From Candidatus Levyibacteriota bacterium (GTDB lineage Bacteria > Patescibacteriota > Microgenomatia > Levybacterales > UBA12049): DNA of 64,000 nt. The DNA lies in contig JAZDGF010000003.1 in assembly GCA_043807135.1 (NCBI GenBank), positions 72,621 through 136,620 of the forward strand, in the 5' to 3' direction. Of this stretch, positions 8,160-51,981 are shown piece after piece. The stretch's first letter is position 1; each line of letters opens with the position of its first letter. The position numbers and the translations under genes are program-made. The notes below the pieces were generated by a model, which saw only the letters and a program-made list of their open reading frames with translations, had not been told where the DNA came from and did no database searches.

Positions 8160-9341
8160 TTAAGCAATTATTTTAGTAATTGCTCCTGCTCCAACTGTTT
8201 TTCCACCCTCTCGGATAGCAAATCTTAGTCCTTCCTCTAGGGCAATTGGGGAAATAAGCTTTGCAGTGATCTTGGTATTGTCTCCTGGCATTACCATTTC
8301 TACTCCTTTTGGTAATGTAGCTTCTCCTGTAACATCGGTTGTTCTGATGTAAAATTGTGGCCTATAGCCATTAAAAAATGGTGTATGCCTTCCGCCTTCT
8401 TCTTTTGTAAGTACATAAATCTCTGCTTCAAACTCTTTATGAGGAGTGATAGATCCCGGTTTTGCAATAACCTGACCACGCTCAACATCATCTTTTTCAA
8501 TTCCGCGAAGTAGAAGTCCAACATTATCTCCTGCTTGACCATCATCAAGTTGCTTTCTAAACATTTCAACGCCTGTTACTACAGTTGACTTAGTATCTCT
8601 AATTCCAACAATTTCTACTGTTTCGTTTACCTTAACCTTTCCTCTCTCAATTCTTCCTGTAACAACTGTTCCTCTTCCTTTAATAGAAAAAACATCTTCA
8701 ACAGGCATAAGGAATGGTTTATCAACTTCTCTTTTGGGTGTAGGAATATATTCATCAACCTTATCCATTAAGTCTAGTATTGATTTTTCTGCATCCGCAT
8801 CGCCTTCCAAGGCTTTAAGAGCTGATCCTCTAATAATTGACACTTTGTCTCCTGGATACTTATATTTTGTAAGAAGTTCTCTTACTTCCATTTCAACTAA
8901 GTCCAATAGTTCTTCATCTTGAACCATGTCACATTTATTAAGGAAAACTACGATTGCAGGAACTCCAACTTGATAAGCTAAGAGAATGTGTTCTCTTGTT
9001 TGAGGCATTGGGCCGTCTGGAGCAGAAACTACTAAAATAGCTCCGTCCATTTGAGCGGCACCGGTAATCATATTTTTTATGTAATCTGCGTGTCCTGGAG
9101 CATCAATATGGGCATAGTGTCTTTTTTCTGTTTCATATTCAATGTGAGAAATATTAATCGTTACTCCTCTTGCTTTTTCTTCAGGAGCATTATCAATATC
9201 TTCATATTTCATTGCTTTTCCTGAGCCTTTTTTGGATAAAATAGTAGCAATAGCTGCGGTTAGCGTGGTTTTACCATGATCTACGTGGCCAATGGTTCCG
9301 ATATTTACGTGTGGTTTTGTTCTCTGAAATGTATCTGCCAT
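8160..9341 (-). CDS. tuf: Elongation factor Tu
   Basis: The 393-aa protein carries [18 protein letters not shown] and NKCD G-motifs, and EF-Tu domains 2 and 3. Confidence 0.97.
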
Positions 9342-34241: not shown

Positions 34242-35894
34242 TCACCAGCTTCCTCCACCGCCTCCACCCCCACCGCCACCGGAAAAACCACCTGATGCAC
34301 CGCTTGAAGAAGAAGTTGTCATGCTGGTTGTCATAGATGAATAAAAACCTGCATAGCCCCCATAAAATCCACCCGAATAACCACTATACCAAGTTGGGTT
34401 ATAATCAGGTTTTATAAGCTTTAGTTGTTCCATAAATTTATCTATATATCCTAAAGCCATCGCATAAGGAATCATTCTCTCAACAATATAAAATCTTTCT
34501 GCTTGCCACTTATAATTCCTATCCATTGATTTTAAGAATAATTTTAATCCGTCTACTCTAAAATCCATTTCATCTCCAAGAAAAGTTCTACCTTTAAGTT
34601 TTTTTGATAAGAAAAATAAAGTTCCGGAGAGAAATAAATTTAAAGTAAAAAAGCTAAAAAGCGCTGCCATAATAAGTAATGCTTTTTGTGTTTTGGGATT
34701 TTTTATATAATATTTTTTTTCAACTAAAGTTTTAAAAGCCTCTTTCTCTAATTTTGAGAAAGTTTTATAAAAATCCGTTTTTAATTCACTAACTTTTATA
34801 CTATCCCCATCTTTAAATAAACGATTAAGTAGTATTTTTTCAAATTCAGATAAATTACTATCATCTTTTTTAAGCTTTTTAATTATTTGCTCTTTATGAC
34901 TTGTGTCTATAATCCCAAATACTTTTGATGATTCTTTTACTTCCTCTAGTTTTATGTATTTTCTTATTGCCAAGTCAAAAATTGTTCCAACGATATCATC
35001 TCTTTCTAGTTTTGTAGTATCTATTATTCCAGAAAGGGCAGGAATAATTCTTCGACCCTTATCATCTTTGGGAGTGTCAAAATTAACGCCTGGTTTGCCA
35101 AATCTCTTTTTATTTTTGTTTTTTTGATACCATAAAAATAAATATGGAGCAAAAATCAGATTTAGAAAAATAAGAACTAAATAGTAATTTTTTAAAATAA
35201 AATTAAAAATTTTATCTCCTAAATCTTGTGGTGGATTTTTTGACAAAACACTTTTGGGAAAAGTATTTACCGGATACACAGCAACTACGGTTAATCCCTC
35301 TCCCGGATTAAGAGCATTTAAAGAAGATGTTATGTTTTCTTGAGTTTCACAATTTTTTTCTTTTGACGAAAAACTACCAGTAAAACAAGTTACATTTTCT
35401 TTTTTTGCATCAAAGTCAGTAGTTATTTTTACGCTTGCTTTTTCAATAACTACTTCCCATTTATTTCCTGTTGTATTCCAATAAATTTCATCATGTTCTG
35501 GAAAATTACTCCCTATACCGTTAGTAACGGTATAGTAAATTTTATAGATATGTGATCCTGTAATTGTTTTATTTGCATCTCCGATTTTAAATTCCGCCTG
35601 ACTACTGGTTTGAGTTTTTTTAAAGTTCTCACTTTGTCCATCTCTTTCTACTTTGACATTTTTAATGTCAATTATTCTGTACCAATCGCCAACCTTTGTA
35701 TATAGAGAAATAAATCTGTAAATTCCATGTCTGTCTAAATTCTCAAAGTCATAATTTATTATTTCAACAATCTCCATTTGTCCATTTTTTTCTGCCTTTA
35801 TATCAACATCAAAAGAGTGGATTATTTCAGCAAAAATTATTGAGGGTTTAATAAAGAAAAAAAGAAATGTAATAAGCAAAATTATTTTTTTCAT
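34242..35894 (-). CDS. DUF2207-like membrane protein with a C-terminal poly-Gly tail
   Basis: The 550-aa protein has a signal peptide, an extracytoplasmic domain, a TM, a cytoplasmic domain, further TMs and a GGFSGGGGGGGGGGSW tail. Confidence 0.6.
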   Translation of the reverse strand: MKKIILLITFLFFFIKPSIIFAEIIHSFDVDIKAEKNGQMEIVEIINYDFENLDRHGIYRFISLYTKVGDWYRIIDIKNVKVERDGQSENFKKTQTSSQAEFKIGDANKTITGSHIYKIYYTVTNGIGSNFPEHDEIYWNTTGNKWEVVIEKASVKITTDFDAKKENVTCFTGSFSSKEKNCETQENITSSLNALNPGEGLTVVAVYPVNTFPKSVLSKNPPQDLGDKIFNFILKNYYLVLIFLNLIFAPYLFLWYQKNKNKKRFGKPGVNFDTPKDDKGRRIIPALSGIIDTTKLERDDIVGTIFDLAIRKYIKLEEVKESSKVFGIIDTSHKEQIIKKLKKDDSNLSEFEKILLNRLFKDGDSIKVSELKTDFYKTFSKLEKEAFKTLVEKKYYIKNPKTQKALLIMAALFSFFTLNLFLSGTLFFLSKKLKGRTFLGDEMDFRVDGLKLFLKSMDRNYKWQAERFYIVERMIPYAMALGYIDKFMEQLKLIKPDYNPTWYSGYSGGFYGGYAGFYSSMTTSMTTSSSSGASGGFSGGGGGGGGGGSW

Positions 35895-35933: not shown

Positions 35934-36923
35934 TTAATTATTTTTTGCTCTGTAAAAGCTTCCTTTTGTTTTTCCTGACTTTTCAACTAAATTTTGATTC
36001 GTAAGTTTTTTTAAATCATAACGAAGCGTTCGTTCAGGTACTTTTAAAAAACGTCTTTTTATACTATCAAATGAAATCGCTGGGTGTTCTTTTATAATAT
36101 TAAGAATTTCTTCTTGTCTTGGAGGCAAGAATATATCTTGCTTTTTAGTTATCTCACTTTCAATTAGTTTTTTAGTTTTTTCAGTTTGCTCATAAAAAGC
36201 TTTAAGCATAAAATAAAGGTATTCTTCAGGTTCTTTTAAACCAATATCTAAATAGTAATAATAATCACTTTTGTGTTCATCTAGGTATTCCTCAAAAGGA
36301 ATATTAACTTCAAAGTTCCAATTTTTTTCTTTAAGAATGGCAAATACTAATAATCTTCCAACTCTTCCATTTCCATCAATAAAAGGATGAATTTTTTCAA
36401 ATATAAAATGCCCCATAAAAGCGCTTATTATTGGAAACTTTTCTTTATTAAAATTTATGTATTTTAAAAGTTTGTTTAATAATAACGGTACTTCTTGTGG
36501 AGGTGGACTTAAATAAATGGCAATTCCCGCGCTATTAAAAATAGCTCCCATTTCTTTTCTAAACTTACCTTGCACCGTGAATAAATCATTCATCACAAGT
36601 GAATGCAGATCTAAAATATCCTTCTCGGAAATTTCTTGCCCTTCTTTAATATTCTTATTTATAAAATCTACTGCTTTTAAGATATTAAAAACCTCAATTT
36701 TTTTTTGCTCTTCGGTTTGCTCCATTCCTATCTCTTCTAAGGTAAGAGGATTTCCCTCAATACGAGCTGAAAAAAGAGAACTCTTTAAAATGCTTACTCT
36801 TTGAATCTTTTCTTTTACGAGGATTGGAATTTTTATTAAAGAAAAATATTGCCTATTTGCTTCAATTTTTGATATAAGTTCTAATATTTCTGGCGTAATC
36901 TTGTATTTTGGATGTATTTGCAC
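35934..36923 (-). CDS. Fic-family protein (class II: N-terminal inhibitory SxxxEGN motif) with a C-terminal winged-helix domain; GTG start
   Basis: The Fic motif HPFIDGNGRVGRLL is present, the inhibitory SARIEGN lies upstream, and the C-terminus has a wHTH. The first in-frame start is GTG at 36923. Confidence 0.85.
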   Translation of the reverse strand: MQIHPKYKITPEILELISKIEANRQYFSLIKIPILVKEKIQRVSILKSSLFSARIEGNPLTLEEIGMEQTEEQKKIEVFNILKAVDFINKNIKEGQEISEKDILDLHSLVMNDLFTVQGKFRKEMGAIFNSAGIAIYLSPPPQEVPLLLNKLLKYINFNKEKFPIISAFMGHFIFEKIHPFIDGNGRVGRLLVFAILKEKNWNFEVNIPFEEYLDEHKSDYYYYLDIGLKEPEEYLYFMLKAFYEQTEKTKKLIESEITKKQDIFLPPRQEEILNIIKEHPAISFDSIKRRFLKVPERTLRYDLKKLTNQNLVEKSGKTKGSFYRAKNN

Positions 36924-36990: not shown

Positions 36991-38643
36991 TCAAACCTCA
37001 ACCACAACCGGAAGAACCAGAGGATGTTTCTTAAAGTTTTTATAAATATATGCTTCGGAAATCTTTCCTGTTAATCTTCTAAACCTTATCCAATCTTTAA
37101 CTGCTCCCCTTCTTTCCTGAAAAGCTCTTCTTAACTCTTGATTTAAATTTCTGCTAAGAGTTTTTGATTCATCGGATGAAAATCCACGAGCAATAATATT
37201 TGGATTTTCTACAGGCTGACCTGTTGCAGAATCAATTTCTACCATTACAATAACTATTCCTTCTTGAGCAATCTTTTGTCTGTCGCGAAGAACAAATTGT
37301 TCAACTTCTTCCCCTGAAATCTGATCCACATATACGCTCTTGAGCTGAATTTTTCTTCCTAATCTTCCTTTTCCATTTGAAAATATTATTTCTTGTCCAT
37401 CCTCGGGAAGTAAAACATTCTCATCCGCAAGTCCATGAAGCTTAGCAAGATTTTTATATGCAACCATTTGCCTAAAAGTTCCACCAATAGGAACGGCCAT
37501 TTTGGGATTAGTTAAAGCCATCATTAAAAATATTTCCTGCGAGGAACCGTGGCCTGATACATGAAAACTATCACTTACTTCAGAATAAATCGGTCTTGCA
37601 CCGGTTCTTGAAATTGCATCAATTACCGCGTTTACAGAAATTTCATTGCCTGGGATCGGATCTGCTGAAAAAACTACCACGTCCTTTGAACCTAATTTAA
37701 CAAATCTATGTTCGTTATTGGCAACTCTTGTCATGGAAGCATTCTCCTGTCCTTGACTCCCTGCAATCACTAAGCAAAGATCATGATCTTTATAATTTTT
37801 AATCTGCTCAGGAGTTATAACAAAGTTTCTTGGAAAGTTCATGTATCCCAATCTTTCCGCAATATCTTTTGCCCTAATTAAAGACCTTCCTACGAAACAA
37901 ATTTTCCTACCTGTTCTTTGCGCAGCTATTGCTGCTTGGTTTAACCTTGAAATATTTGAACTGTAAGTTGTTAGTATAAATTTTCCTTCACACTTTCGCA
38001 TTTCCATTTCAATATTTTCTTCAAGTTTTCTTTCCGAAGGAGTATGACCTTCTTTCTCAGCACCTAATGCATCTGACATTAAACATAAAATTCCCTCGGA
38101 CGCACACTTTGCTATTTTGGCAAAATTAGTTGTTTTTTTGTCGAAAGGAGTTAAGTCAAATTTATAATCGCTACCGTGGTAAAAATTACCAGCTTGAGTT
38201 TTTATAAAAAGATTTGAGGCATCAGGTATAGAATGAGTTACTCTTATAAAAGAAATTTTAAATCCTCCTAAAGAGATATCTCCACCGTCAAAATCAACCG
38301 GTTTTACTCTATTTAGAGATTTAAATTCTTCAAGCTTCCCATTAGCAAAAGCAGCAGTTAAAGGACTTCCAAAAATAGGGAACAGGGGAAGCTGCGGGAG
38401 AATAAACGGTAAGGCTCCAATATGATCTTCGTGACCATGAGATAAAACCATTCCGACAATCTTTTTCTTAGTTTGCAATAAGTAAGAAATGTCAGGAAGT
38501 AATAAATCTACGCCAAGCACAGTCTCATCTGCAAAACCAATTCCACAGTCAACTATTAATATTTCTGTTGCGGATTCGTAGATATACATGTTCTTTGTTA
38601 CATCTCCTGATCCACCTAATGGTATAAATTTTATTTCATTCAT
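36991..38643 (-). CDS. rnj: Ribonuclease J
   Basis: The 550-aa protein has a metallo-beta-lactamase HGHEDH motif, a beta-CASP domain and a C-terminal domain. Confidence 0.9.
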   Translation of the reverse strand: MNEIKFIPLGGSGDVTKNMYIYESATEILIVDCGIGFADETVLGVDLLLPDISYLLQTKKKIVGMVLSHGHEDHIGALPFILPQLPLFPIFGSPLTAAFANGKLEEFKSLNRVKPVDFDGGDISLGGFKISFIRVTHSIPDASNLFIKTQAGNFYHGSDYKFDLTPFDKKTTNFAKIAKCASEGILCLMSDALGAEKEGHTPSERKLEENIEMEMRKCEGKFILTTYSSNISRLNQAAIAAQRTGRKICFVGRSLIRAKDIAERLGYMNFPRNFVITPEQIKNYKDHDLCLVIAGSQGQENASMTRVANNEHRFVKLGSKDVVVFSADPIPGNEISVNAVIDAISRTGARPIYSEVSDSFHVSGHGSSQEIFLMMALTNPKMAVPIGGTFRQMVAYKNLAKLHGLADENVLLPEDGQEIIFSNGKGRLGRKIQLKSVYVDQISGEEVEQFVLRDRQKIAQEGIVIVMVEIDSATGQPVENPNIIARGFSSDESKTLSRNLNQELRRAFQERRGAVKDWIRFRRLTGKISEAYIYKNFKKHPLVLPVVVEV

Positions 38644-38650
38644 AATTTTC

Positions 38651-39736
38651 TTAGGTTGATAAAAATTGCTTTAAGTTTTCTTTGGTAACATGAACTTGAG
38701 TATTTTGTTGCACTTTTCCCTCAATAATAAGCCTTGCAGTTTTCCTGCAAATTCCCTCAATTGTTCTCTCTAAGCTTCTAATCCCAGAGTCAAAACCCAA
38801 TGGCCTTATAATGTTTGGCCATAAAGGATCATCGACTATTAGCTGATTATCAGAAAGTCCTGAGGCTTTTCTAATTTTTGGAAAAAGATAAATTTTAGCA
38901 ATAACAGTTTTTTCTTCGTCCGTATAAGACGGCATTTGAATTATCTCAAGCCTATCTAGCACTGCAGTTGAAATATTGGTTGTATTATTTGCAGTTGTAA
39001 CAAATAAAGAGTGAGATAAATCAAACGGATAATCAATATAATGATCTGTAAATGCCTTATTTTGCTCAGGATCTAAAAGTTCAACTAAAACTCCCATAAT
39101 ATCAGCTCTTGCCGCTTCGGTAACTCTATCAAGCTCATCAAGTAAAATTACCGAATTTTTACTTTGCGCGTGTACTATTTTTTTAACAATTGCGCCCGGT
39201 TCTGCTTCTGCAAGTGCACGAGACTGCCCACGCAGAATTTTTGCATCTCCCATTCCTCCGAAAGGAATTCTCTCAAATTTTCTTCCCAATGCTTCTGCAA
39301 TTGAATAAGCAAGTGTTGTTTTACCGGTTCCGACAAGACCAATCAAACAAAGAATTGGAGCACGAATTGTCATGTCTTGCTCTTGATTTGTTCTTAAATT
39401 AAGCATAATTGAGGAAAGATATTCAAGAATTCTGTTTTTAACACTTTCCAAACCGTAATGATTTTTGTCTAAAATTTGTTTTGCCGCATTAATATCTAAA
39501 AAATCCTTTGTTTCTTTTGCAAAGGGAAGATCACATATCCAATCAATATATTTTGCCGTACTTTCAAAATTAATAAAAGTTGCTCCTCCTGCTTTAAGCC
39601 CAGCTCTTAACATGGAAAGCATTCCATTAACTTTTTCTAAAAGTTCCGGAGGTAAATTTGCAGCTTTTACTTTTTCTTCAAGTTTTTTCACTTGAATATC
39701 AAGAGAGCCAGTTTGGTCCATATATTTATAATACAA
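38651..39736 (-). CDS. Lon-like AAA+ ATPase module only (no LON N-domain, no S16 peptidase domain)
   Basis: The 361-aa protein aligns to the Lon ATPase region: YIDWICDLPF, HYGLESVKNRILEYL, Walker A GLVGTGKTT, Walker B ILLDELD and TTANN. It ends exactly at the ATPase/protease boundary and is flanked by intact genes. Confidence 0.6.
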   Translation of the reverse strand: MYYKYMDQTGSLDIQVKKLEEKVKAANLPPELLEKVNGMLSMLRAGLKAGGATFINFESTAKYIDWICDLPFAKETKDFLDINAAKQILDKNHYGLESVKNRILEYLSSIMLNLRTNQEQDMTIRAPILCLIGLVGTGKTTLAYSIAEALGRKFERIPFGGMGDAKILRGQSRALAEAEPGAIVKKIVHAQSKNSVILLDELDRVTEAARADIMGVLVELLDPEQNKAFTDHYIDYPFDLSHSLFVTTANNTTNISTAVLDRLEIIQMPSYTDEEKTVIAKIYLFPKIRKASGLSDNQLIVDDPLWPNIIRPLGFDSGIRSLERTIEGICRKTARLIIEGKVQQNTQVHVTKENLKQFLST

Positions 39737-39775: not shown

Positions 39776-42085
39776 TTACCGCGGTTTTCTATTATAGCGA
39801 GGCATTCCACTTTGTGGCCTATTTTGTCTTCCACCCATGTTCTTTGCATGCCATTCTTTTTCACGCTCACGTCTAAATTGCATTGCCAATGGATGATCGG
39901 TTTTAGCTCCTTGAAAAGAATCTCCACTTCTTTGAGGATCATTCTCTCTTCCCTCACTTTTTTTATCTCCTCCTTCTGCATTTTCTCCAAATAGCATAGA
40001 AAGATTAATTCTTCCTTGTTCATCAATCTCAATAACTTTTACTTTTACTTTTTGTCCAATAGAGACTACATCGTTTGGATCTTTAACAAATTCTGTAGAC
40101 ATTTTGGAAACATGTACCATTCCTTCTTTACCTGGTAAAATTTCAATAAATGCTCCGAAAGGAAGAATTCTTTTTACTTCCCCTTCAAAAACCTCTCCTG
40201 AAGTTACTTCGCGAACTAAACCTTTTATCCAATCAACCGCTTTTTGTACTGCTTCTTCCGAAGTTCCCGAAATTGCCACTGAACCATCGTCTTCAACATC
40301 TACTGTTGCACCTGTTGTAGCAATAATATTTTTAATTATTTTTCCTCCCGGACCAATAACTTCACCTATTTTTTCAACTGGAATTTTAACCATTTCAATC
40401 TTTGGTGCATATTCTGAAACTTCTTCTCTTACATGAGGCATAACAGAAAGCATTTTTTCTAAAATAAATATTCTTGCAGTTTTTGCTTTTTCTAAAGCTT
40501 CAGCAATTTGTTCAAAGGTAATACCTGCAATTTTAACATCTAGTTGAATTGCAGTAATGCCATCTTTTGATCCTGCAATTTTAAAGTCCATGTCTCCGGA
40601 AAAATCTTCTAAACCCAAGATATCTGTTAGGATTTGATATTTTTCAGAGGAGCTCATAAGCCCCATGGCAATTCCTGCAATCGGATTTTTAATTGGAACT
40701 CCAGCATCCATTAAAGCGAGTGTTGATCCGCATGTTGCTGCCATAGAAGTTGAACCGTTAGAAGAAAGAATTTCTGAAACTACTCTTATTGTGTAAGGAA
40801 ACTTGGCTTGATCCGGAATAACTGGCTCAAGAGCTCTTTCCGCCAAAGCTCCATGTCCGATTTCTCTTCTTGAAGGAATTCCAATTCTTCCTGTTTCTCC
40901 AACAGAATATGGAGGCATTGAATAATGGTGCATATATTTTTTAGACTCTTCTCCTTCTGCCGATTCAATTAACTGCTCTAGCCTTGGAGATCCTAAGGTT
41001 ACAACCGTAAGTCCTTGTGTCTGTCCTCTTTGAAAAATTGCCGATCCGTGAGTTCTTGGTAAAAGTGAAACTCGTGAAGAAATTTCTCTTATCTCATCCA
41101 TTTTTCTTCCATCCGGTCTAATTCCTTTTTTAAGAATGTTTTCTCTAATACTTGCAAAAAGTACATATTCTATTGCTTTGGCAATGCTTTTTTTGTCTAT
41201 TGAAAATTCAGGATTTGCCGATTGTTCTCTTTCAAAAACTGCATCCACTAAATCTCCTGCTCCGTCTCCGCTTGATTCTTTACTAAGTCTATTTTTAAGA
41301 AGCGCAACTGCCTCCTCCTTGTATGATTTTTGGATTAAGGCTTTTGCTTCTTCAAGTTTTTGATCAGGGCTAACCGTCTCCTTTTTTTCTCCTGCTTCTT
41401 TAACAAATTTTTCAATAAATTCAATTATTTTTTTGTTTTCTTCGTGTGCTTTTTTAATTGCTCCTAAAACTATCTCTTCCGAAACTTGGGTTGCTCCTGC
41501 TTCAAGCATTAAGGTTTTTTCTTTATTTTGAGTTGCAATCAAATCAAGTTCTGAAAAATCAGATTCGGCATGACCGGGATTAACAAAATATTCAAAATTT
41601 CCATTATTTGGTTCTTTTACAAAACCTATTCTTACTGCTGCTATAGGACCATTCCAGGGAATTCTTGATGCAGCAAGTGCTGCTGAGACAGCATTAATTG
41701 ATAAGATATCAGGCTCGTTTTCTCCATCAACAGAAAGAACAGTTATTATAATTTGCACTTCTTTTTTAAATTCTTTTGGAAAAAGAGGCCTAATTGACCT
41801 ATCAATAAGTCTTGCGATTAGAATAGAATCATCTGAAGGTCTCCCTTCTCTTTTTACCCAACGGCTTCCTTTAATTCTTCCACCTGCGTAAAGTCTTTCA
41901 ACATACTCAACCATCAGGGGAAAATAATCAATATCTTCTCTTTGTTTTCCTTCTGTAACAGTTACCAAAACCATAGTATCTCCCATTCTTGCCAGAACAG
42001 AAGATGTAGCTTGGTTTGCCAGCTCATCTGTCTCAAAGGTTATTTTTTTACCTTCTAATTCTAGTTCTACTGAGGTTTTCTTCAT
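39776..42085 (-). CDS. pnp: Polynucleotide phosphorylase with a Gly/Arg-rich C-terminal extension
   Basis: The 769-aa protein has two RNase PH domains, KH and S1 domains, and a basic tail. Confidence 0.95.
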   Translation of the reverse strand: MKKTSVELELEGKKITFETDELANQATSSVLARMGDTMVLVTVTEGKQREDIDYFPLMVEYVERLYAGGRIKGSRWVKREGRPSDDSILIARLIDRSIRPLFPKEFKKEVQIIITVLSVDGENEPDILSINAVSAALAASRIPWNGPIAAVRIGFVKEPNNGNFEYFVNPGHAESDFSELDLIATQNKEKTLMLEAGATQVSEEIVLGAIKKAHEENKKIIEFIEKFVKEAGEKKETVSPDQKLEEAKALIQKSYKEEAVALLKNRLSKESSGDGAGDLVDAVFEREQSANPEFSIDKKSIAKAIEYVLFASIRENILKKGIRPDGRKMDEIREISSRVSLLPRTHGSAIFQRGQTQGLTVVTLGSPRLEQLIESAEGEESKKYMHHYSMPPYSVGETGRIGIPSRREIGHGALAERALEPVIPDQAKFPYTIRVVSEILSSNGSTSMAATCGSTLALMDAGVPIKNPIAGIAMGLMSSSEKYQILTDILGLEDFSGDMDFKIAGSKDGITAIQLDVKIAGITFEQIAEALEKAKTARIFILEKMLSVMPHVREEVSEYAPKIEMVKIPVEKIGEVIGPGGKIIKNIIATTGATVDVEDDGSVAISGTSEEAVQKAVDWIKGLVREVTSGEVFEGEVKRILPFGAFIEILPGKEGMVHVSKMSTEFVKDPNDVVSIGQKVKVKVIEIDEQGRINLSMLFGENAEGGDKKSEGRENDPQRSGDSFQGAKTDHPLAMQFRREREKEWHAKNMGGRQNRPQSGMPRYNRKPR

Positions 42086-42447: not shown

Positions 42448-43467
42448 TTAAAAATTGGTCGATCCTTTGTAGATTTTTGGCGCAAGCCAATCCTCTGGAG
42501 GGTTTTCAATTTGCTTTTCTTTTTCAACTTGTTCAATTGGAGTAACTTCATCAGTTTTTTTAGCTGCCGGTGCAATTTCCGGTTGGTTGCTTAATTTTTC
42601 TTCCTGTCTTTTTTGCGATTCAATAATTTGTTTTCTAAGTCTTTCCATCACTTCTTCTGAGCTTTGAGTTGTTTGCTGTTGAGGTCTTTGCACAGTTTGT
42701 GATGGCTCAAAATTTGTTGCTCTTTGCCTTACCAGGGAAGTTCTTCTTGCTCCATTTCTTATTAAAGCACCTGCCATTTCAAATGCTAAGGAGCTAGTTT
42801 CCGGATTTTGGAAATCATTAGTTGTAAATGAAATTCCTGACAAAAGATTTTGAGAAATATCTTGATCCATTGGAAGACCAAGAAATAGAATTAAACTCGC
42901 AATAATTTCTGAAACAGAAGAAGCTTTTGGATCTACTAAAACAACATCTCCAAAACCTTGATTCTCAGATTTATTGTCAATATTAATTACTTTTGTATCT
43001 TTAAGATCTGCAACGTCAAAAATCGTACTAAAATCAGTAAGCCTTGGAGAACCAATAGTAAATAAAATGTTTGGAGTATTTGAAGCACCACTTGTAAACT
43101 TAATATCTTTTTGGGAAAAATTAAGTCCTTGAGGTCCTGCTTTTACAATAATATTTAGTAATTCATTTTCTAAAGTATAAGAAACTTTTTCTATTTCTCC
43201 ATCTTTATACGGAAATGATACTACCAAATCTCCACCTGATATTCCTAAACTTGTTTTTACTTTATTTATACCTACTAAATTAGATATTTCAACAATCGGC
43301 TGATCAGGAGCTGCAATAGAAACTGTTTTTCCAGAAGAAACTAATGCAAGATACAAAGAAAGGGCAGCGCCCATATCATCAAGGCTTGGGTTTTTTCCAG
43401 CCACAATACCAAAAGTATTTGCCGTATTTAATAGATCTTTAATTTGTTTAAAAGTAAATGTATCCAT
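42448..43467 (-). CDS. DHH/DHHA1-family (NrnA-like) protein with degenerate catalytic motifs (DHH replaced by DNK)
   Basis: The 339-aa protein aligns to NrnA (VINIDNKSENQGFGDVVLVDPKASSVSEII against IDHHPNEDPYGDLLWVDTSASSVSEMI). Motif I is altered and it carries a roughly 100-aa low-complexity C-terminal tail. Confidence 0.55.
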   Translation of the reverse strand: MDTFTFKQIKDLLNTANTFGIVAGKNPSLDDMGAALSLYLALVSSGKTVSIAAPDQPIVEISNLVGINKVKTSLGISGGDLVVSFPYKDGEIEKVSYTLENELLNIIVKAGPQGLNFSQKDIKFTSGASNTPNILFTIGSPRLTDFSTIFDVADLKDTKVINIDNKSENQGFGDVVLVDPKASSVSEIIASLILFLGLPMDQDISQNLLSGISFTTNDFQNPETSSLAFEMAGALIRNGARRTSLVRQRATNFEPSQTVQRPQQQTTQSSEEVMERLRKQIIESQKRQEEKLSNQPEIAPAAKKTDEVTPIEQVEKEKQIENPPEDWLAPKIYKGSTNF

Positions 43468-47284: not shown

Positions 47285-49666
47285 TTAATTAATATTTACA
47301 ATAAGTTCGTTTTCCTTACCTACTGAAAGAGAAACTTTATTTCCTCTGTTTATTTCTCCTGATAAAATCTTTTTTGCAATATTATCTTCTATGCCATTTT
47401 GAATAAAACGTTTTAATGGTCTTGCTCCAAATTGCTCGTCAAATCCTTCGCTTGAAACTTTTTTAACAATATTTTCATCAAAACTAAGATTAACGTCTTT
47501 TTCGGCAATTCTTCTTACCAAATCTTCTAAAAGCATTTTTGAAATTAACATAACCTGTTCTAATCCTAATGGTTTAAATACAATTGTGTCATCAAATCTG
47601 TTTATAAGTTCTGGTTTAAATATTCCGTTTATCTGCAAAAACTCAAATAATCTTTCTTTAAATGCCTTATCTAAAACAATTGATTTTTTAACTTCTTCAC
47701 GAATGAACTCAGAGGCTGCATTTGAAGTTGCAATAATAATTGTATTTGCAAAAGAGACAGTTTTTCCTTTATTGTCAGTTAATCTTCCATCATCTAAAAC
47801 CTGAAGAAATAAATCGAGAATTCTTGGATGTGCTTTTTCAAATTCATCAAGCAAAACCAGAGAATATGGATTATCATAAACTTTATCCGTTAATTCTCCT
47901 TTTTCAGATCCTTCTCCAGGAAGAGCACCAAGAAGTCTTTTACCACTATCTTCCTGTGAGTACTCACTCATATCAAGTCTTATCATCCGTTCACTTGATC
48001 CATAATAACTTTCTGCTAAGGCTTTTGCAGTTTCTGTTTTCCCAACTCCGGTAGGACCCATGAATAAAAAGGAAATTGGCCTTCTTTGATCTGTCAGACC
48101 TGATCTAAGCCTTCTCATTGCTTCTGAAATTGCCACAACTGCCTCATCTTGATCAATAACTCTTTTATGAATTTGTTCCTCCAGATGTAGAAGCAATTGC
48201 TTTTCTTTTTCTTTTGGAATGCCTATCGCACTTTTTATCTTTCTTTCTAAGAAAGAGATAATATCTTCTTCTTCGAGTATATTTTTACCGTTTGCTAATG
48301 CAAAAGTTGAAGCATCTTCTAAGAGAACAATTGCAGAGCCAGGAAGAACCAAATTTCTATTGTATTTATCTGCATAATTTAAAGAGGCAAGAAGTCCTCT
48401 GTAGCTTATTTGAATATTCTTGCTTTTTTCCACATACCAAGCATTTCTAAAAAGCATCATAAGAGCAGTATTTTTATCAGGCACATCAAGCCTTATTGTT
48501 TGTAAGGCACCCATTAGCTCATGCCTTTGTTCAATTTGCTTTTTAAAAGCAACTGGAGTTGTAGTTGTAATTAATCTGATTACTCCTTTTTCAATATATG
48601 GGATGAGGGCAGAAGATAAATCTAACTTGTATGAAGAATTACCTAATATATTTTCAAAATCCTTAACTAAAATAATGATATCCCCTGCATGAGCAAGTTC
48701 CACAACCATTAATCCAAGTCTTTCTTCAAGCTCTCCTTGACTTTCTGCTCCTGCTAAAAAAGAATCTACCATTAATTGAAAAATTCTTTGGTGATAAAGA
48801 TTTCCTTTTAGTTTTCCAGAATAACTATCAAGAGCTAACTTTTGAATTAAAGAATCCTTGCCACTTCCCGGCTCACCAATAATAAGCACGCTTTTTTTCT
48901 CCATAAGTCCTTCTAGGAGCATTTTATATTCTTCATCTCTTCCAATTATTTCAGGGCTTCTTCTTAAGATTTCTGAAGTTAAATCAACCATATATTTTTT
49001 AATTTCAATTGTCCATCCGTAAACCCATGGTTCACCAACTCCCTCTCCCCAAAACTCCACTCTATTGTGTTTTGTTTTTTCAAGCTTATCAAAGCTCATT
49101 CTTGCCCAAATTAAAATTCTTAATAAATCATCTTCCTTAAGTTTATTTTTAAAAAGTAGTTTTGTTTTATCCTCTGTGTTTAAAAAGTAAGCTGCAAAAA
49201 CATCAACTTCTGTTACAAAATTTCCGTTTATTTTTTTTACCAAGTACATTGCTGTTTGCATAAGCTTTTCTTTGAAAACACTTTCTTTTACTAAATCCTC
49301 TTTTTTAATATCCATTTTAGTTAACATAAATTTCCCAATTTTTTGTTTTTTTAGTTTTTCTAAGATTTCACTTTCATGATCAAAACAAAGAACAATTGCT
49401 TCAAGAGTAAAGGAATTAAAAATATCTTCCTTATTTTCCAAAACTTTTACACTTGGAAACTTTCGATAGATTTTTCTCTTAAAGAAAATTTCAATAATTA
49501 AGAATAGGCAAAGGAAAAATAACGGAAATTTAATGTTGACTAGTTTTTGAGGAATAATTAAGAACTGATTAACTACTGCAATAATTAGAAGAGCAAATAT
49601 TAAAAACCTTATTAATTCTATAATTCTTGAGGAGTAAAAATAATAAAGCTTTGCGTAATTTTTCAT
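47285..49666 (-). CDS. Membrane-anchored Hsp100/Clp-family ATPase with two AAA+ modules; D1 degenerate, D2 canonical
   Basis: The 793-aa protein has two N-terminal TM helices, Clp_N-like repeats, D1 (GEPGSGKDS; ILVKDFENIL) and D2 (GPTGVGKTE; LVLLDEFEKAH; ATSN). Confidence 0.75.
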   Translation of the reverse strand: MKNYAKLYYFYSSRIIELIRFLIFALLIIAVVNQFLIIPQKLVNIKFPLFFLCLFLIIEIFFKRKIYRKFPSVKVLENKEDIFNSFTLEAIVLCFDHESEILEKLKKQKIGKFMLTKMDIKKEDLVKESVFKEKLMQTAMYLVKKINGNFVTEVDVFAAYFLNTEDKTKLLFKNKLKEDDLLRILIWARMSFDKLEKTKHNRVEFWGEGVGEPWVYGWTIEIKKYMVDLTSEILRRSPEIIGRDEEYKMLLEGLMEKKSVLIIGEPGSGKDSLIQKLALDSYSGKLKGNLYHQRIFQLMVDSFLAGAESQGELEERLGLMVVELAHAGDIIILVKDFENILGNSSYKLDLSSALIPYIEKGVIRLITTTTPVAFKKQIEQRHELMGALQTIRLDVPDKNTALMMLFRNAWYVEKSKNIQISYRGLLASLNYADKYNRNLVLPGSAIVLLEDASTFALANGKNILEEEDIISFLERKIKSAIGIPKEKEKQLLLHLEEQIHKRVIDQDEAVVAISEAMRRLRSGLTDQRRPISFLFMGPTGVGKTETAKALAESYYGSSERMIRLDMSEYSQEDSGKRLLGALPGEGSEKGELTDKVYDNPYSLVLLDEFEKAHPRILDLFLQVLDDGRLTDNKGKTVSFANTIIIATSNAASEFIREEVKKSIVLDKAFKERLFEFLQINGIFKPELINRFDDTIVFKPLGLEQVMLISKMLLEDLVRRIAEKDVNLSFDENIVKKVSSEGFDEQFGARPLKRFIQNGIEDNIAKKILSGEINRGNKVSLSVGKENELIVNIN

Positions 49667-50037: not shown

Positions 50038-51981
50038 TTAATTTATAGGTGTACATTTGAGGCTACAAATTTGAATACCATCTTCTCTTGAAGTACATGC
50101 AGGGTCAAAAACACAATTAGCCGTTTTATAAATGGTTGTAGTTGTGGTAGAAGTTCCTAAACCTCCTTCTCCAGGCAAACTACAATCAGAAGGACAATTT
50201 ACATTTGTTTCTCCTAATTCACAGGTTCCATTTCCACAAGTATTATTTCCTCCAGGCAAACTACAATCAGAAGGACAATTTACATTTGTTTCTCCTAATT
50301 CACAGGTTCCATTTCCACAAGTATTATCTCCTCCTCCGGGGTTTGCTCCTGGCGGAATTATAAAGCTAAAAATAAGACCAAAATTACTAGTATTAATATT
50401 AATAGGGTTCGAAGGGAAAACAATTGTCCCTGCTTTTGCGGAAATATTATAGCTACCAATAGGAAGAGAAGTAAATGCGTATTCACCGTTACTATTAGTT
50501 GTGATAGTGCCACTGTATGGACCCGACAAAGTAATTGTTGCTCCTTGAATACCTTGTTCTCCTGGATCAAAAGTATTATTACTGTTTTGATCTATAAAAA
50601 CTGCACCCGAAATAAAGGGCCTATTTTGAAGAGAAGGATCGCCTCCTCCTGGATTAGTCCCTCCCGTTGTAGTTGTTGTTGTCTGTGTTGTTGTTCCTCC
50701 ACAATATTTTGGCAAAACATTAGTTCTAATCCAATATTTTTCTACAGAGTCAAATATTGGTTGTGTTGCACAACCTACTGCACTCATCATAGTGTTTGCA
50801 TTACCACTTGCTACTAGGTTTGGGTTAGCAGGTTTTGGACAAGTTAATGGAGAAGAAGCATAATTATTTATATTACTACAGCCCTTGTATGATCCTTGCC
50901 CGCCTGCTGTTTGCCAAAAACTTTCTCCGCTTGGATTATTCGTACAATTACTTTTTATTCCCCCTTGTATTTGTCCATAGCCTAAGTTTGAAGAGACATA
51001 GCGATCATACAAGAGGCCTATTGCATGACCTAAAAATTCATGCGCTGCAACTACTCTGGTGGTATTAGTAATATTTCCTCCATTATTTGGGAAAACTGCA
51101 ACGTTTCCCCCAATTCCGCTTGTTACTCCAAGCGCACCCCCTGAAATTACCATATCAACTAAAACTATTACTTTTGAAGCATCCGGATAAGTAGATTTTG
51201 CTATTTGCATAATTCTAGTGCTACCCACACAATTAAGGCTTGCTTTACACCCTAAAGATTCTGAATTGTCAACTACTCTAAAATCAAAAATGCTTTGTGT
51301 GTTGTACGGATCAACTGAAAGATAAATTTGCTTAAAAGCATCTACATCTTGATGAAACTTATTAAAATCCGTATACCCATCACTTACAAATGCAACAACT
51401 AAAGGACTACATCCTTGTGTCTGGGCATGGGCTTTGGGTAAATTAAAAAAATTTAGAGAATTTTTTTTTACAGGGAGCTCAATTTTCAAGATATTCTCAC
51501 TATTCTCTTTAATAAGAATCTTTGTTCCTTTGTCTAAGTATGGAACATAAATAACCGTATCTAATTTATCAGGAATTTCAGGCTGAGAACTTCCCGAAGC
51601 AGGAGCATTTATAGACATATCATATAAAGGATCTGTTGTAATGTTTATTTTTGTTCTATAAAGCACTTCATCACCTGAAGAATACATCACTAACTCGTAT
51701 GGCGAAAAATCTGCACTTCTATTATCTTGTGATATTTTTTTATCAATAAGGGTTACTTCTTTTAAAACAAGCTCTCTTTTGTCCGTATTAAAAGTAAGTA
51801 TTACCTCCCATGTCTTATAATTTGGTTTTTGCTCTGTAGTTACTGTCTTTTTAGACATAAATAAAGCGATTGGAATTGAGAATAAAACAATTAGAATAAT
51901 TACAACAAAAATGATTTTTTTTGGAATTGATATCTTTTGAAAAAATGAATTAATTTTACTTAAAAATCCCTCGTTATTCAT
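50038..51981 (-). CDS. Secreted multidomain protein with an N-terminal anchor, an HEFLGH (HExxxH) zincin-like segment, a Cna-B/SdrD-B-type fold and two Cys-rich 27-aa repeats
   Basis: The 647-aa protein contains AAHEFLGHAIGLLYDRY, then SGAVFIDQNSNNTFDPGEQGIQGATITLSGPYSGTITTNSNGEYAF, then two copies of NTCGNGTCELGETNVNCPSDCSLPG. Confidence 0.55.
   Translation of the reverse strand: MNNEGFLSKINSFFQKISIPKKIIFVVIILIVLFSIPIALFMSKKTVTTEQKPNYKTWEVILTFNTDKRELVLKEVTLIDKKISQDNRSADFSPYELVMYSSGDEVLYRTKINITTDPLYDMSINAPASGSSQPEIPDKLDTVIYVPYLDKGTKILIKENSENILKIELPVKKNSLNFFNLPKAHAQTQGCSPLVVAFVSDGYTDFNKFHQDVDAFKQIYLSVDPYNTQSIFDFRVVDNSESLGCKASLNCVGSTRIMQIAKSTYPDASKVIVLVDMVISGGALGVTSGIGGNVAVFPNNGGNITNTTRVVAAHEFLGHAIGLLYDRYVSSNLGYGQIQGGIKSNCTNNPSGESFWQTAGGQGSYKGCSNINNYASSPLTCPKPANPNLVASGNANTMMSAVGCATQPIFDSVEKYWIRTNVLPKYCGGTTTQTTTTTTGGTNPGGGDPSLQNRPFISGAVFIDQNSNNTFDPGEQGIQGATITLSGPYSGTITTNSNGEYAFTSLPIGSYNISAKAGTIVFPSNPININTSNFGLIFSFIIPPGANPGGGDNTCGNGTCELGETNVNCPSDCSLPGGNNTCGNGTCELGETNVNCPSDCSLPGEGGLGTSTTTTTIYKTANCVFDPACTSREDGIQICSLKCTPIN
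50171..50332. repeat. Near-perfect 81-bp tandem direct repeat, two copies, inside the secreted-protein gene
   Basis: ccaggcaaactacaatcagaaggacaatttacatttgtttctcctaattcacaggttccatttccacaagtattat occurs twice with period 81. It is also visible as a repeated peptide in the opposite-strand ORF 50132-50452. Confidence 0.85.

What the first reader, a model, noticed from the sequence alone, without database searches (positions are those of the whole stretch)
38651..39736. Stand-alone Lon AAA+ module lacking both the LON N-domain and the S16 protease domain
The 361-aa ORF aligns across the Lon ATPase region, including the segment before the Walker A, Walker A and B, and sensor motifs. It stops exactly where the protease domain would begin, and PNPase sits 39 nt upstream, so there is no room for the missing domains. 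It could be a protease-less Lon-like unfoldase or adaptor, a split Lon whose other parts are elsewhere, or a decaying gene that still has a clean reading frame.
Basis: seen in the sequence. Interest (0 to 1): 0.5.

Follow-up and report, generated by a model that had tools for sequence, protein, structure and literature searches.

The report
Protease-less Lon ATPase of Microgenomates bacteria
This is a real, strongly conserved gene found throughout one class of ultra-small (CPR) bacteria; it keeps only the ATP-driven motor of the Lon protease, has lost both the substrate-binding head and the cutting domain, and has also lost the residues that normally pull proteins through the motor, so it probably does something other than protein degradation.

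Summary
It matches LonA only over its ATPase region: TIGR00763 positions 254-576 of 795, and PDB 6N2I, E. coli Lon 235-584. There is no LON N-domain and no S16 peptidase domain.

It is not a pseudogene or an artefact. The same ~355-aa architecture occurs in all 80 species loci retrieved, from Levy-, Shapiro-, Gottesman-, Woese-, Ames-, Davies- and Roizmanbacteria, and in a Dojkabacteria protein. dN/dS is 0.07 against the nearest orthologue. The family separates from LonA in an NJ tree (49 of 60 bootstraps).

Walker A, Walker B, sensor-1, Arg-finger and sensor-2 residues are invariant in 98 of 98 members. The pore-loop-1 Tyr, invariant in 72 of 72 LonA, is aromatic in only 24 of 98, and the loop has become acidic (P-[DE]-A-E-P-G).

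The gene usually lies between pnp (49 of 66 loci) and rnj (58 of 68). In a sub-clade it lies divergent from groES-groEL.

No Lon N or S16 domain was found in the window or within 8-10 kb of the gene in 91 related loci. Whole genomes could not be searched.

Best reading: an ATP-dependent, proteolysis-independent Lon-derived remodeller. Its client is unknown.

The parts
38651..39721 (-). CDS of the stand-alone Lon-type AAA+ ATPase (356 aa, ATG start, TAA stop at 38651-38653)
   Evidence: ORF list. The start is placed at the ATG because all orthologues begin MD... and are 354-356 aa long. Pfam AAA + Lon_lid. LonA-only homology over TIGR00763 positions 254-576.
39722..39736 (-).
   Evidence: No orthologue carries this extension.
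39389..39712 (-). N-terminal helical bundle (residues 4-111). It corresponds to the C-terminal part of the LonA HI(CC) domain (helices alpha8-alpha11 of E. coli Lon 235-584).
   Evidence: The AF2 model has helices 4-21, 25-43, 49-64, 77-87 and 92-111. The PDB alignments start at 3M6A residue 9 and 6N2I residue 12. Domain description in PMC6722904.
38924..39370 (-). Nucleotide-binding alpha/beta (NB) domain, residues 118-266
   Evidence: Pfam AAA 129-267 in 361-aa numbering. AF2 strands and helices. Foldseek TM about 0.8 to LonA and LONP1 chains.
39314..39340 (-). Walker A, GLVGTGKTT (LonA has GPPGVGKTS)
   Evidence: Read in the sequence. G128, G131, G133, K134 and T135 are invariant in 98 of 98 members. 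The 'GL[VAQ]G' signature replaces the LonA 'GPPG'.
39194..39232 (-). Pore-loop 1, degenerate: RGQSRALAEAEPG, where LonA has RGHRRTY[VI]G[AS][ML]PG
   Evidence: LonA has T and Y in 72 of 72 sequences. In the family the Tyr position is H/F/S/R/L/Y/Q/N and aromatic in 24 of 98. Position 172 is D/E in 86 of 98 and position 174 is E in 94 of 98.
39128..39151 (-). Walker B, VILLDELD
   Evidence: D195 and E196 are invariant in 98 of 98 members.
39089..39118 (-). Pore-loop 2 region (residues 202-211), EAARADIMGV, where LonA has xD[FY]RGDP[AS][SA]A
   Evidence: The LonA position that is F or Y in 50 of 72 sequences is A, S or G in 80 of 98 family members.
38951..38989 (-). Sensor-1 Asn245 (38987-38989) to Arg-finger Arg257 (38951-38953)
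   Evidence: Both residues are invariant in 98 of 98 members.
38654..38920 (-). Lon-type lid (small alpha-helical H) domain, residues 268-356, including sensor-2 Arg315 (38777-38779). The protein ends where the LonA linker to the protease domain would begin.
   Evidence: Pfam Lon_lid. R315 is invariant. The alignment to LonA ends at TIGR00763 position 576 and 6N2I residue 339.
39776..42085 (-). Upstream gene pnp (PNPase), same strand. It is part of the conserved nusA-infB-ORF-rpsO-pnp-lonAAA-rnj array.
   Evidence: Translation. Pfam domains of the orthologues. PNPase lies upstream in 49 of 66 evaluable species loci.
36991..38643 (-). Downstream gene rnj (RNase J), same strand, 7 nt after the lonAAA stop codon
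   Evidence: RNase J lies downstream in 58 of 68 evaluable species loci, and within 400 nt in 34. No terminator-like site in either spacer.

Best explanation
The gene encodes a functional, vertically inherited member of a distinct protein family in Microgenomates-group Patescibacteria (CPR). The family derives from LonA and consists only of the last helices of the HI(CC) domain, the nucleotide-binding domain and the Lon lid. Shown here: the domain boundaries, conservation across at least 80 species, strong purifying selection, and invariance of every residue needed to bind and hydrolyse ATP between subunits (Walker A, Walker B, sensor-1, Arg finger, sensor-2). Also shown: the aromatic pore-loop residues that LonA uses to grip and thread substrate are not conserved and are replaced by a conserved acidic loop. 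No N-domain or S16 peptidase gene lies nearby. Inferred: the protein assembles into a Lon-like ring or spiral. It uses ATP to remodel or hold a partner rather than to feed a protease, so it is a proteolysis-independent chaperone or remodeller, not a general unfoldase. It is co-transcribed with pnp and rnj. In a sub-clade it is transcribed next to groES-groEL. Its clients are therefore most likely components of RNA turnover or of general proteostasis, possibly basic proteins or tails that suit the acidic pore.
For: The span equals the stable E. coli Lon(235-584) fragment, which crystallised with ADP bound and packs as an open helical hexamer (PMC6722904). All of the 120 best homologues (67-93% identity) are 320-395 aa, 115 of them 347-360 aa, with AAA + Lon_lid only. 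All 80 GTDB species loci show the same architecture. More distant members (39-57% identity), including one from Dojkabacteria, end at the same point. dN/dS is 0.07. The family forms one bipartition against 55 LonA and tandem-Lon modules plus 5 LonA-like fragments in an NJ tree, with 49 of 60 bootstraps. Catalytic residues are invariant in 98 of 98 members, while the pore-loop-1 Tyr position is aromatic in 24 of 98 against 72 of 72 Tyr in LonA, and the pore-loop-2 aromatic residue is lost. Tyr397 and Trp431 of the LonA pore loops contact substrate and are required for degradation (PMC8503904). No LON-N or Lon_C was found in the window or in the related loci, and the HMM positive controls worked. 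Context: rnj downstream in 58 of 68 loci, pnp upstream in 49 of 66, and divergent groES-groEL in 8 species loci plus L090. No terminator-like site lies in the 39-nt or 7-nt spacers.
Against: No biochemical data exist. ATPase activity, oligomeric state and clients are all inferred. A quarter of members keep an aromatic residue (F or Y) at the pore-loop-1 position, so some threading ability may persist. Gene order in CPR genomes is compact and conserved, so the pnp/rnj linkage may be inherited synteny rather than a functional link. A family-4 uracil-DNA glycosylase gene is often inserted between lonAAA and rnj. A trans-acting peptidase elsewhere in the genome was not excluded.
Confidence: 0.55

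Rival explanations
1. It is a dedicated ATP-dependent cofactor of the RNA-decay machinery. The Lon-derived ATPase would bind RNase J and/or PNPase, or their RNP substrates, and remodel them, acting as an AAA+ component of a CPR 'degradosome'.
For: The gene is tightly embedded between pnp and rnj, with spacers of 39-54 nt and 7 nt and no terminator-like site. rnj lies downstream in 58 of 68 species loci and pnp upstream in 49 of 66. The linkage persists in distant members L085-L087 at 45-52% identity. The PNPase here has an Arg/Lys-rich C-terminal tail that could suit an acidic pore; this last point is speculation.
Against: Eight of 61 fully evaluable species loci have neither neighbour and sit next to groES-groEL instead. 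An unrelated UDG gene often separates lonAAA from rnj. The operon is a mixed housekeeping array (nusA-infB-rpsO-pnp). I know of no precedent for an AAA+ partner of RNase J or PNPase, and the literature searches found none. An acidic pore argues against direct RNA threading.
Confidence: 0.2
2. It is a split Lon. The ATPase works with a separately encoded S16 peptidase (and perhaps an N-domain protein) encoded elsewhere in the genome, reconstituting a two-component Lon protease.
For: The protein ends exactly at the LonA ATPase-protease junction. Whole genomes could not be searched, so a distant partner gene is not excluded. AAA+/peptidase pairs encoded apart are common (ClpX/ClpP; established knowledge).
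Against: No Lon_C or LON-N ORF lies in the 64-kb window or within 8-10 kb of the gene in 91 related loci from very divergent genomes. No core-family member is fused to Lon_C, among the family's 17 representatives of 50%-identity clusters or the 80 species loci. The pore-loop residues needed to deliver a chain into a protease chamber are not conserved.
Confidence: 0.1
3. It is a nucleotide-dependent switch or scaffold that does no mechanical work. It would bind ATP and oligomerise, for example as a regulator or assembly platform, with hydrolysis serving only as a timer.
For: The substrate-gripping pore loops are lost while the nucleotide-site residues are kept. Some members carry long Q/P/S-rich disordered tails, typical of scaffolding proteins.
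Against: The Walker B Glu, sensor-1 and the trans-acting Arg finger are invariant in 98 of 98 members. That points to selection for hydrolysis coupled between subunits and not for binding alone. The new pore-loop sequence (P-[DE]-A-E-P-G) is itself conserved, which suggests the pore is still used.
Confidence: 0.14
4. It is a pseudogene fragment, or an assembly or frameshift artefact, of a full-length lon gene.
For: None beyond the truncated appearance relative to LonA.
Against: The flanking genes leave no room for the missing domains. The architecture is identical in independent assemblies of at least 80 species. dN/dS is 0.07. The catalytic motifs are invariant. The nearest single-module full-length LonA shares only about 37-48% identity, against up to 93% within the family.
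Confidence: 0.01

Closest known systems
LonA protease (endopeptidase La, MEROPS S16, TIGR00763), for example B. subtilis LonA 3M6A, E. coli Lon and human LONP1
   Same: The ATPase region has about 37-48% identity to LonA and covers the three-helix bundle before the AAA+ module, the NB domain and the Lon-specific lid. All ATPase catalytic motifs are shared. The fold matches at TM about 0.8.
   Different: It has no LON N-terminal domain and no S16 Ser-Lys protease domain. Walker A reads GL[VAQ]G instead of GPPG. The pore-loop-1 T-Y and the pore-loop-2 aromatic residue are not conserved, and the pore loop is acidic. It scores 321 bits against the TIGR00763 cutoff of 608.
E. coli Lon fragment 235-584 (PDB 6N2I), made by limited proteolysis
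   Same: It has almost the same span: query residues 17-359 align to 6N2I residues 12-339. The fragment binds ADP and packs as an open helical hexamer, which shows that this part of Lon is a stable autonomous unit.
   Different: 6N2I is a laboratory fragment of a protease with canonical pore loops. The CPR protein is a natural, independently evolving gene product with altered pore loops.
LonC (Meiothermus taiwanensis), the Lon-like protease with no ATP-powered unfolding
   Same: It is a Lon family member that has lost one half of the Lon machine and has been reported to act as a chaperone (abstracts of PMC3391209 and PMC13069640).
   Different: It is the mirror image: LonC keeps the protease and has a dead ATPase module, whereas this family keeps a seemingly live ATPase and has no protease.
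Protease-free or pseudo-protease AAA+ relatives of AAA+ proteases (ClpB/Hsp104 versus ClpA/C; plant FtsHi pseudo-proteases)
   Same: These are precedents for an AAA+ protease lineage giving rise to members that act without proteolysis. PMC8197885 (title) covers FtsHi; the ClpB case is established knowledge.
   Different: ClpB has two AAA+ rings, an M-domain and intact pore-loop tyrosines. FtsHi proteins keep an inactive protease domain. Here the protease domain is deleted outright and the pore loops have changed.

Membership tests
LonA protease (endopeptidase La, TIGR00763 / MEROPS S16) | LON N-terminal substrate-binding domain (PF02190) | tested here: not met
   No Pfam hit. The TIGR00763 match starts at model position 254. 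My LonA N-domain HMM and tblastn with 11 LonA sequences find nothing in the window.
LonA protease (endopeptidase La, TIGR00763 / MEROPS S16) | C-terminal S16 peptidase domain with Ser-Lys dyad (PF05362 Lon_C) | tested here: not met
   The protein ends at TIGR00763 position 576 of 795, and RNase J starts 7 nt later. There is no Lon_C in the window or in 91 related loci. The positive controls worked.
LonA protease (endopeptidase La, TIGR00763 / MEROPS S16) | Whole-protein score above the curated equivalog cutoff | tested here: not met
   321 bits against 608 for TIGR00763, and 250 against 891 for NF008053.
LonA protease (endopeptidase La, TIGR00763 / MEROPS S16) | Lon-type AAA+ module with the Lon-specific lid | tested here: met
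   Pfam AAA + Lon_lid. E about 1e-70 to LonA structures. Foldseek TM about 0.8.
LonA protease (endopeptidase La, TIGR00763 / MEROPS S16) | Substrate-translocating pore loops (pore-loop-1 Tyr, pore-loop-2 aromatic residue) | tested here: not met
   The query has Leu at the Tyr position. The family is aromatic there in 24 of 98 members, against 72 of 72 Tyr in LonA. The functional role of these residues is described in PMC8503904.
Classical AAA+ ATPase (hydrolysing, oligomeric) | Walker A Lys/Thr, Walker B Asp-Glu, sensor-1 Asn, Arg finger and sensor-2 Arg | tested here: met
   All are invariant in 98 of 98 family members and present in the query.
Classical AAA+ ATPase (hydrolysing, oligomeric) | Measured ATP hydrolysis and ring or spiral assembly | not testable with these tools
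   Only a monomer model is available. By analogy, E. coli Lon(235-584) forms an open helical hexamer in crystals.
Split (two-component) Lon | A separately encoded S16 peptidase in the same genome that co-occurs with the ATPase | tested here: inconclusive
   It is absent from the 64-kb window and from 8-10 kb around the gene in 91 loci. Whole genomes could not be fetched with these tools.
LonB / LonC | Transmembrane insertion in the AAA+ module (LonB), or a degenerate ATPase plus an active protease domain (LonC) | tested here: not met
   The best models are the LonA equivalogs. The Walker motifs are intact and there is no protease domain.
Anti-phage defence AAA+/Lon-like proteins (for example BrxL) | A specific PADLOC model hit and a defence-island context | tested here: not met
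   Only weak generic AAA matches, 32 bits or less. The context is a housekeeping operon.

The most novel reading that the evidence does not exclude
Microgenomates-group bacteria may have converted Lon into a protease-free ATPase that is a stoichiometric, ATP-driven component of their RNA-decay machinery. It would work with RNase J and PNPase, for example by engaging basic tails or RNP clients through its acidic pore. That would be the first AAA+-powered bacterial degradosome component, and the first natural 'ATPase-only' Lon.
Probability: 0.12. Interest if true: 0.8.

Novelty: new variant of a known kind. Interest (0 to 1): 0.55.

Why it matters
Lon is regarded as the archetype of a protease whose motor and blade sit on one chain. 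The known deviants (LonB, LonC, LonBA) all keep the protease. Here a whole bacterial class keeps only the motor, under strong selection, with an intact ATP site and a remodelled pore. That makes it a natural experiment on what the Lon ATPase can do without proteolysis.

It also bears on annotation. IMG labels these proteins 'ATP-dependent Lon protease' and NCBI labels them 'AAA family ATPase'. Metabolic reconstructions of CPR genomes may therefore credit them with a Lon protease they do not have.

Finally, the conserved position between pnp and rnj, or beside groESL, gives concrete and testable candidates for its partners in organisms whose proteostasis and RNA turnover are almost unstudied.

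Tried and rejected
- **Pseudogene or frameshift:** rejected on conservation and dN/dS.
- **Lon parts elsewhere in the window:** tblastn with 11 full-length LonA sequences hit only this ORF, plus weak AAA similarity to the two Clp-type ATPases.
- **Lon N or S16 near the gene in relatives:** HMMs built from 34 LonA sequences gave no hits, and the positive controls worked.
- **Whole-genome search for S16:** not possible.
- **Rosetta-stone fusions:** the extended family members (P0126, P0160, P0072, P0125, P0130, P0144) carry only low-complexity Q/P/S-rich tails, not domains.
- **Recurrent gene between lonAAA and rnj as a candidate partner:** by its sequence motifs it looks like a family-4 uracil-DNA glycosylase (family 1 in L064), with no evident functional tie to the ATPase.
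- **CIRCE heat-shock operator upstream of lonAAA:** not found. The only good CIRCE sits in front of an Hsp20-like gene in L073.
- **Defence-system membership:** PADLOC gave only generic AAA hits.
- **Literature:** seven full-text searches for a protease-less Lon or for Lon in CPR found nothing relevant.
- **First NJ test of monophyly:** it failed because five truncated LonA fragments had been counted as family members. After removing them (family-HMM score about 350, against at least 439 for members), the family is one clade.
- **The conserved 'LG[FY]' before sensor-2 as a ClpX-like IGF docking loop:** rejected, because it lies in the lid next to the nucleotide site and not on a protruding loop (inference).

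Full report
**Observation.** The ORF at window 38651..39736 (-) exists as described. PNPase (39776..42085, -) ends 39 nt upstream of its TTG. RNase J (36991..38643, -) begins 7 nt after its stop codon. No room is left for further domains, and neither spacer holds a terminator-like site. Pfam finds only AAA (129-267) and the Lon-specific lid (290-343). The LonA equivalog TIGR00763 aligns only over model positions 254-576 of 795, at 321 bits against a cutoff of 608. The best solved relatives are B. subtilis LonA (3M6A) and the E. coli Lon 235-584 fragment (6N2I), at E about 1e-70, with query residues 17-359 aligned to 6N2I residues 12-339. An AlphaFold2 model (mean pLDDT 80) has a five-helix N-terminal bundle, an alpha/beta domain and a helical lid. 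It superposes on LonA and LONP1 chains over its full length at TM about 0.8. The one correction concerns the start codon. All orthologues begin 'MD' and are 354-356 aa long, so the ATG at 39721 (356 aa) is the likely start.

**The gene is real and conserved.** The 120 best database homologues (67-93% identity) are 320-395 aa long, 115 of them 347-360 aa, and carry AAA + Lon_lid only. Those with names are Levybacteria or 'Patescibacteria group'. A scan of one genome per GTDB species returned 80 loci with 49-89% identity. Their titles name Levy-, Shapiro-, Gottesman-, Woese-, Ames-, Davies- and Roizmanbacteria, all in the Microgenomates group. Every one has the same short architecture. An exhaustive HMMER search of 1.84 billion cluster representatives found further stand-alone members at 41-57% identity. 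One is from Dojkabacteria, and some carry low-complexity Q/P/S-rich tails but no extra domains. Against the nearest orthologue (L005) dN/dS is 0.07. After five truncated LonA fragments were removed, the family formed a single bipartition against 55 LonA and tandem-Lon modules plus those five LonA-like fragments in an NJ tree, with 49 of 60 bootstraps. The nearest full-length LonA sequences, from Clostridiales, Veillonellaceae and Anaerolineales, share only about 40-48% identity in the ATPase region. Pseudogene, frameshift and assembly artefact are therefore excluded.

**What is kept and what is changed.** I compared 98 family members with the ATPase modules of 72 full-length LonA representatives.
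- Walker A Lys/Thr, Walker B Asp-Glu, sensor-1 Asn, the Arg finger and sensor-2 Arg are invariant in both sets.
- LonA pore-loop 1 is RGHRR-T-Y-[VIL]-G-[AS]-[MLI]-P-G, with Thr and Tyr in 72 of 72 sequences.
- The family has RG-Q-S-R-x-x-[PAL]-[DE]-A-E-P-G at the same place.
- The Tyr position is H, F, S, R, L, Y, Q or N, and aromatic in 24 of 98 members. It is Leu in this window.
- The positions after it have become acidic: D/E in 86 of 98 and E in 94 of 98.
- The pore-loop-2 position that is F or Y in most LonA sequences is A, S or G.

In LonA these two residues (Tyr397 and Trp431 in M. taiwanensis) make the contacts to the translocating chain and are required for degradation (PMC8503904). 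The family also has its own conserved signatures, GL[VAQ]G in place of GPPG in the P-loop and P-L-G-[FY]-D before sensor-2. The ATP site, including the trans-acting Arg finger, is under selection. The canonical substrate-gripping paddles are not, and a new acidic pore loop has been fixed in their place.

**No partner domains nearby.** tblastn with 11 full-length LonA sequences hits only this ORF in the 64-kb window. HMMs for the LonA N-domain and the S16 domain, built from 34 LonA sequences and checked with positive controls, find nothing in the window, in 84 related loci with 10-kb flanks, or around the seven stand-alone members found in metagenomes. Whole genomes could not be searched, so a distant S16 gene is not excluded.

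**Genomic context.** In the window and in its relatives the gene lies in the array nusA - infB - (unknown ORF) - rpsO - pnp - lonAAA - rnj.
- Among one-per-species loci with enough flank, RNase J is downstream on the same strand in 58 of 68, and within 400 nt in 34.
- PNPase is upstream in 49 of 66.
- In 21 loci a gene that, by its sequence motifs, looks like a family-4 uracil-DNA glycosylase sits between lonAAA and rnj.
- Eight of 61 fully evaluable loci have neither pnp nor rnj nearby. In seven of these, and in L063, lonAAA is divergent from groES-groEL. It is preceded there by a conserved promoter-like motif, TTGTCAAG[GT]GGA-N-TCTGCTAA.
- The distant metagenomic members show the same two contexts.
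- The window also carries dnaK and two Clp-type ATPases 8-22 kb upstream.

**Interpretation.** The most economical reading is a LonA-derived AAA+ ATPase that has been released from proteolysis. It probably still oligomerises and hydrolyses ATP. This rests on the invariant inter-subunit catalytic residues, and on the equivalent E. coli fragment being a stable ADP-binding unit that packs as an open hexamer (PMC6722904). Because it has no N-domain and lacks conserved aromatic pore loops, it is unlikely to be a general unfoldase. It more probably remodels or holds specific partners.

Its operon partners point to RNA turnover (RNase J, PNPase) or, in one sub-clade, to the chaperonin system. Compact CPR operons mix functions, so this remains a lead and not a finding. 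I give the protease-independent remodeller reading 0.55, a specific RNA-decay cofactor 0.2, a nucleotide switch or scaffold 0.14, a split Lon 0.1 and an artefact 0.01.

**Comparison with known families.** The protein fails the defining tests for LonA membership: no N-domain, no S16 domain, a sub-threshold equivalog score and no pore-loop Tyr. It passes those of a classical AAA+ ATPase with a Lon-type lid. It is the mirror image of LonC, which keeps the protease and has a dead ATPase (PMC3391209). Conceptually it parallels ClpB and the plant FtsHi proteins. I found no NCBIfam, Pfam or PADLOC model specific to it. Seven full-text searches found no paper describing it. I class it as a new variant of a known kind.

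**Limits.** No function was measured. The context statistics come from related genomes and are not independent events. The NJ tree is simple. Whether these genomes have any S16 peptidase is still unanswered, and that is the single most decisive missing computation.

Noticed in passing
Proteins P0121, P0123, P0124, P0127, P0129, P0132, P0135, P0136, P0139-P0141 and others: These proteins carry two or three tandem Lon-type AAA+ modules followed by one Lon_C peptidase domain, and have no LON N-domain. They make up 24 of the 150 best cluster representatives. The named ones are from Candidatus Dependentiae/Babeliales. In some, one of the modules has divergent pore loops. I do not know of a description of 'double-ring' Lon proteases.
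   Followed up: partly
L017 11081-11719, L046 11067-11717, L054 11041-11691 and 18 more loci; also L085-L087: A gene of about 210 aa recurs between lonAAA and rnj. By eye it carries family-4 uracil-DNA glycosylase motifs (GEAPG ... PMYHPAA); it was not scanned against Pfam. L064 has a family-1-like UNG there instead. The arrangement is conserved even in distant members, so pnp-lonAAA-udg-rnj may be the ancestral order.
   Followed up: partly
L038, L051, L063, L067, L073, L076, L080, L082, L090 (for example L076 9970-9996): In a sub-clade, lonAAA is divergently adjacent to groES-groEL. It is preceded, only a few nucleotides before its start codon, by a conserved motif, TTGTCAAG[GT]GGA-N(8-22)-TCTGCTAA. 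This may be a promoter giving a near-leaderless mRNA. The motif was found nowhere else in these loci.
   Followed up: partly
window 47285-49666 (-) and 51978-54626 (-): Two Clp/Hsp100-type ATPases lie upstream. The 882-aa one has Clp_N plus two AAA modules. In the 793-aa one, Pfam detects only the second module (AAA_2 + ClpB_D2-small), so its first module may be degenerate. The 793-aa gene keeps the same position upstream of nusA in relatives.
   Followed up: no
window 42448-43467 (-): A 339-aa ORF between infB and rpsO has no Pfam hit, and the orthologues in L001 and L003 also have none. It occupies the place where rbfA/truB sit in many bacteria, and it keeps this position in most related loci.
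   Followed up: no
window 39776-39990 (-), C-terminus of PNPase: This PNPase (769 aa) ends in a tail of about 70 aa rich in Arg, Lys, Gly and Gln, beyond the S1 domain. A basic tail beside an ATPase with an acidic pore is suggestive, but it was not tested.
   Followed up: no
P0126 (residues 1-320), P0160 (residues 355-548), P0125, P0130, P0144, P0072: Some family members carry long Q/P/S/N-rich low-complexity extensions at the N- or C-terminus with no detectable domain. They may be disordered interaction tails.
   Followed up: partly
L073 8341-8367: A near-perfect CIRCE operator (TTAGCACTC-N9-GACTGCTAA, 1 mismatch) lies in front of an Hsp20-like gene (8416-8844), two genes from lonAAA. This suggests that HrcA-type heat-shock control exists in these genomes, but it does not sit on lonAAA itself.
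   Followed up: no
window 35934-36923 (-) and 34242-35894 (-): Immediately downstream of rnj lie a Fic/DOC-domain protein with a C-terminal HTH-like tail, and a 550-aa membrane protein ending in a Gly/Ser-rich tail. Neither shows up downstream of rnj in the related loci; only L020 has a Fic homologue, about 9 kb away.
   Followed up: no
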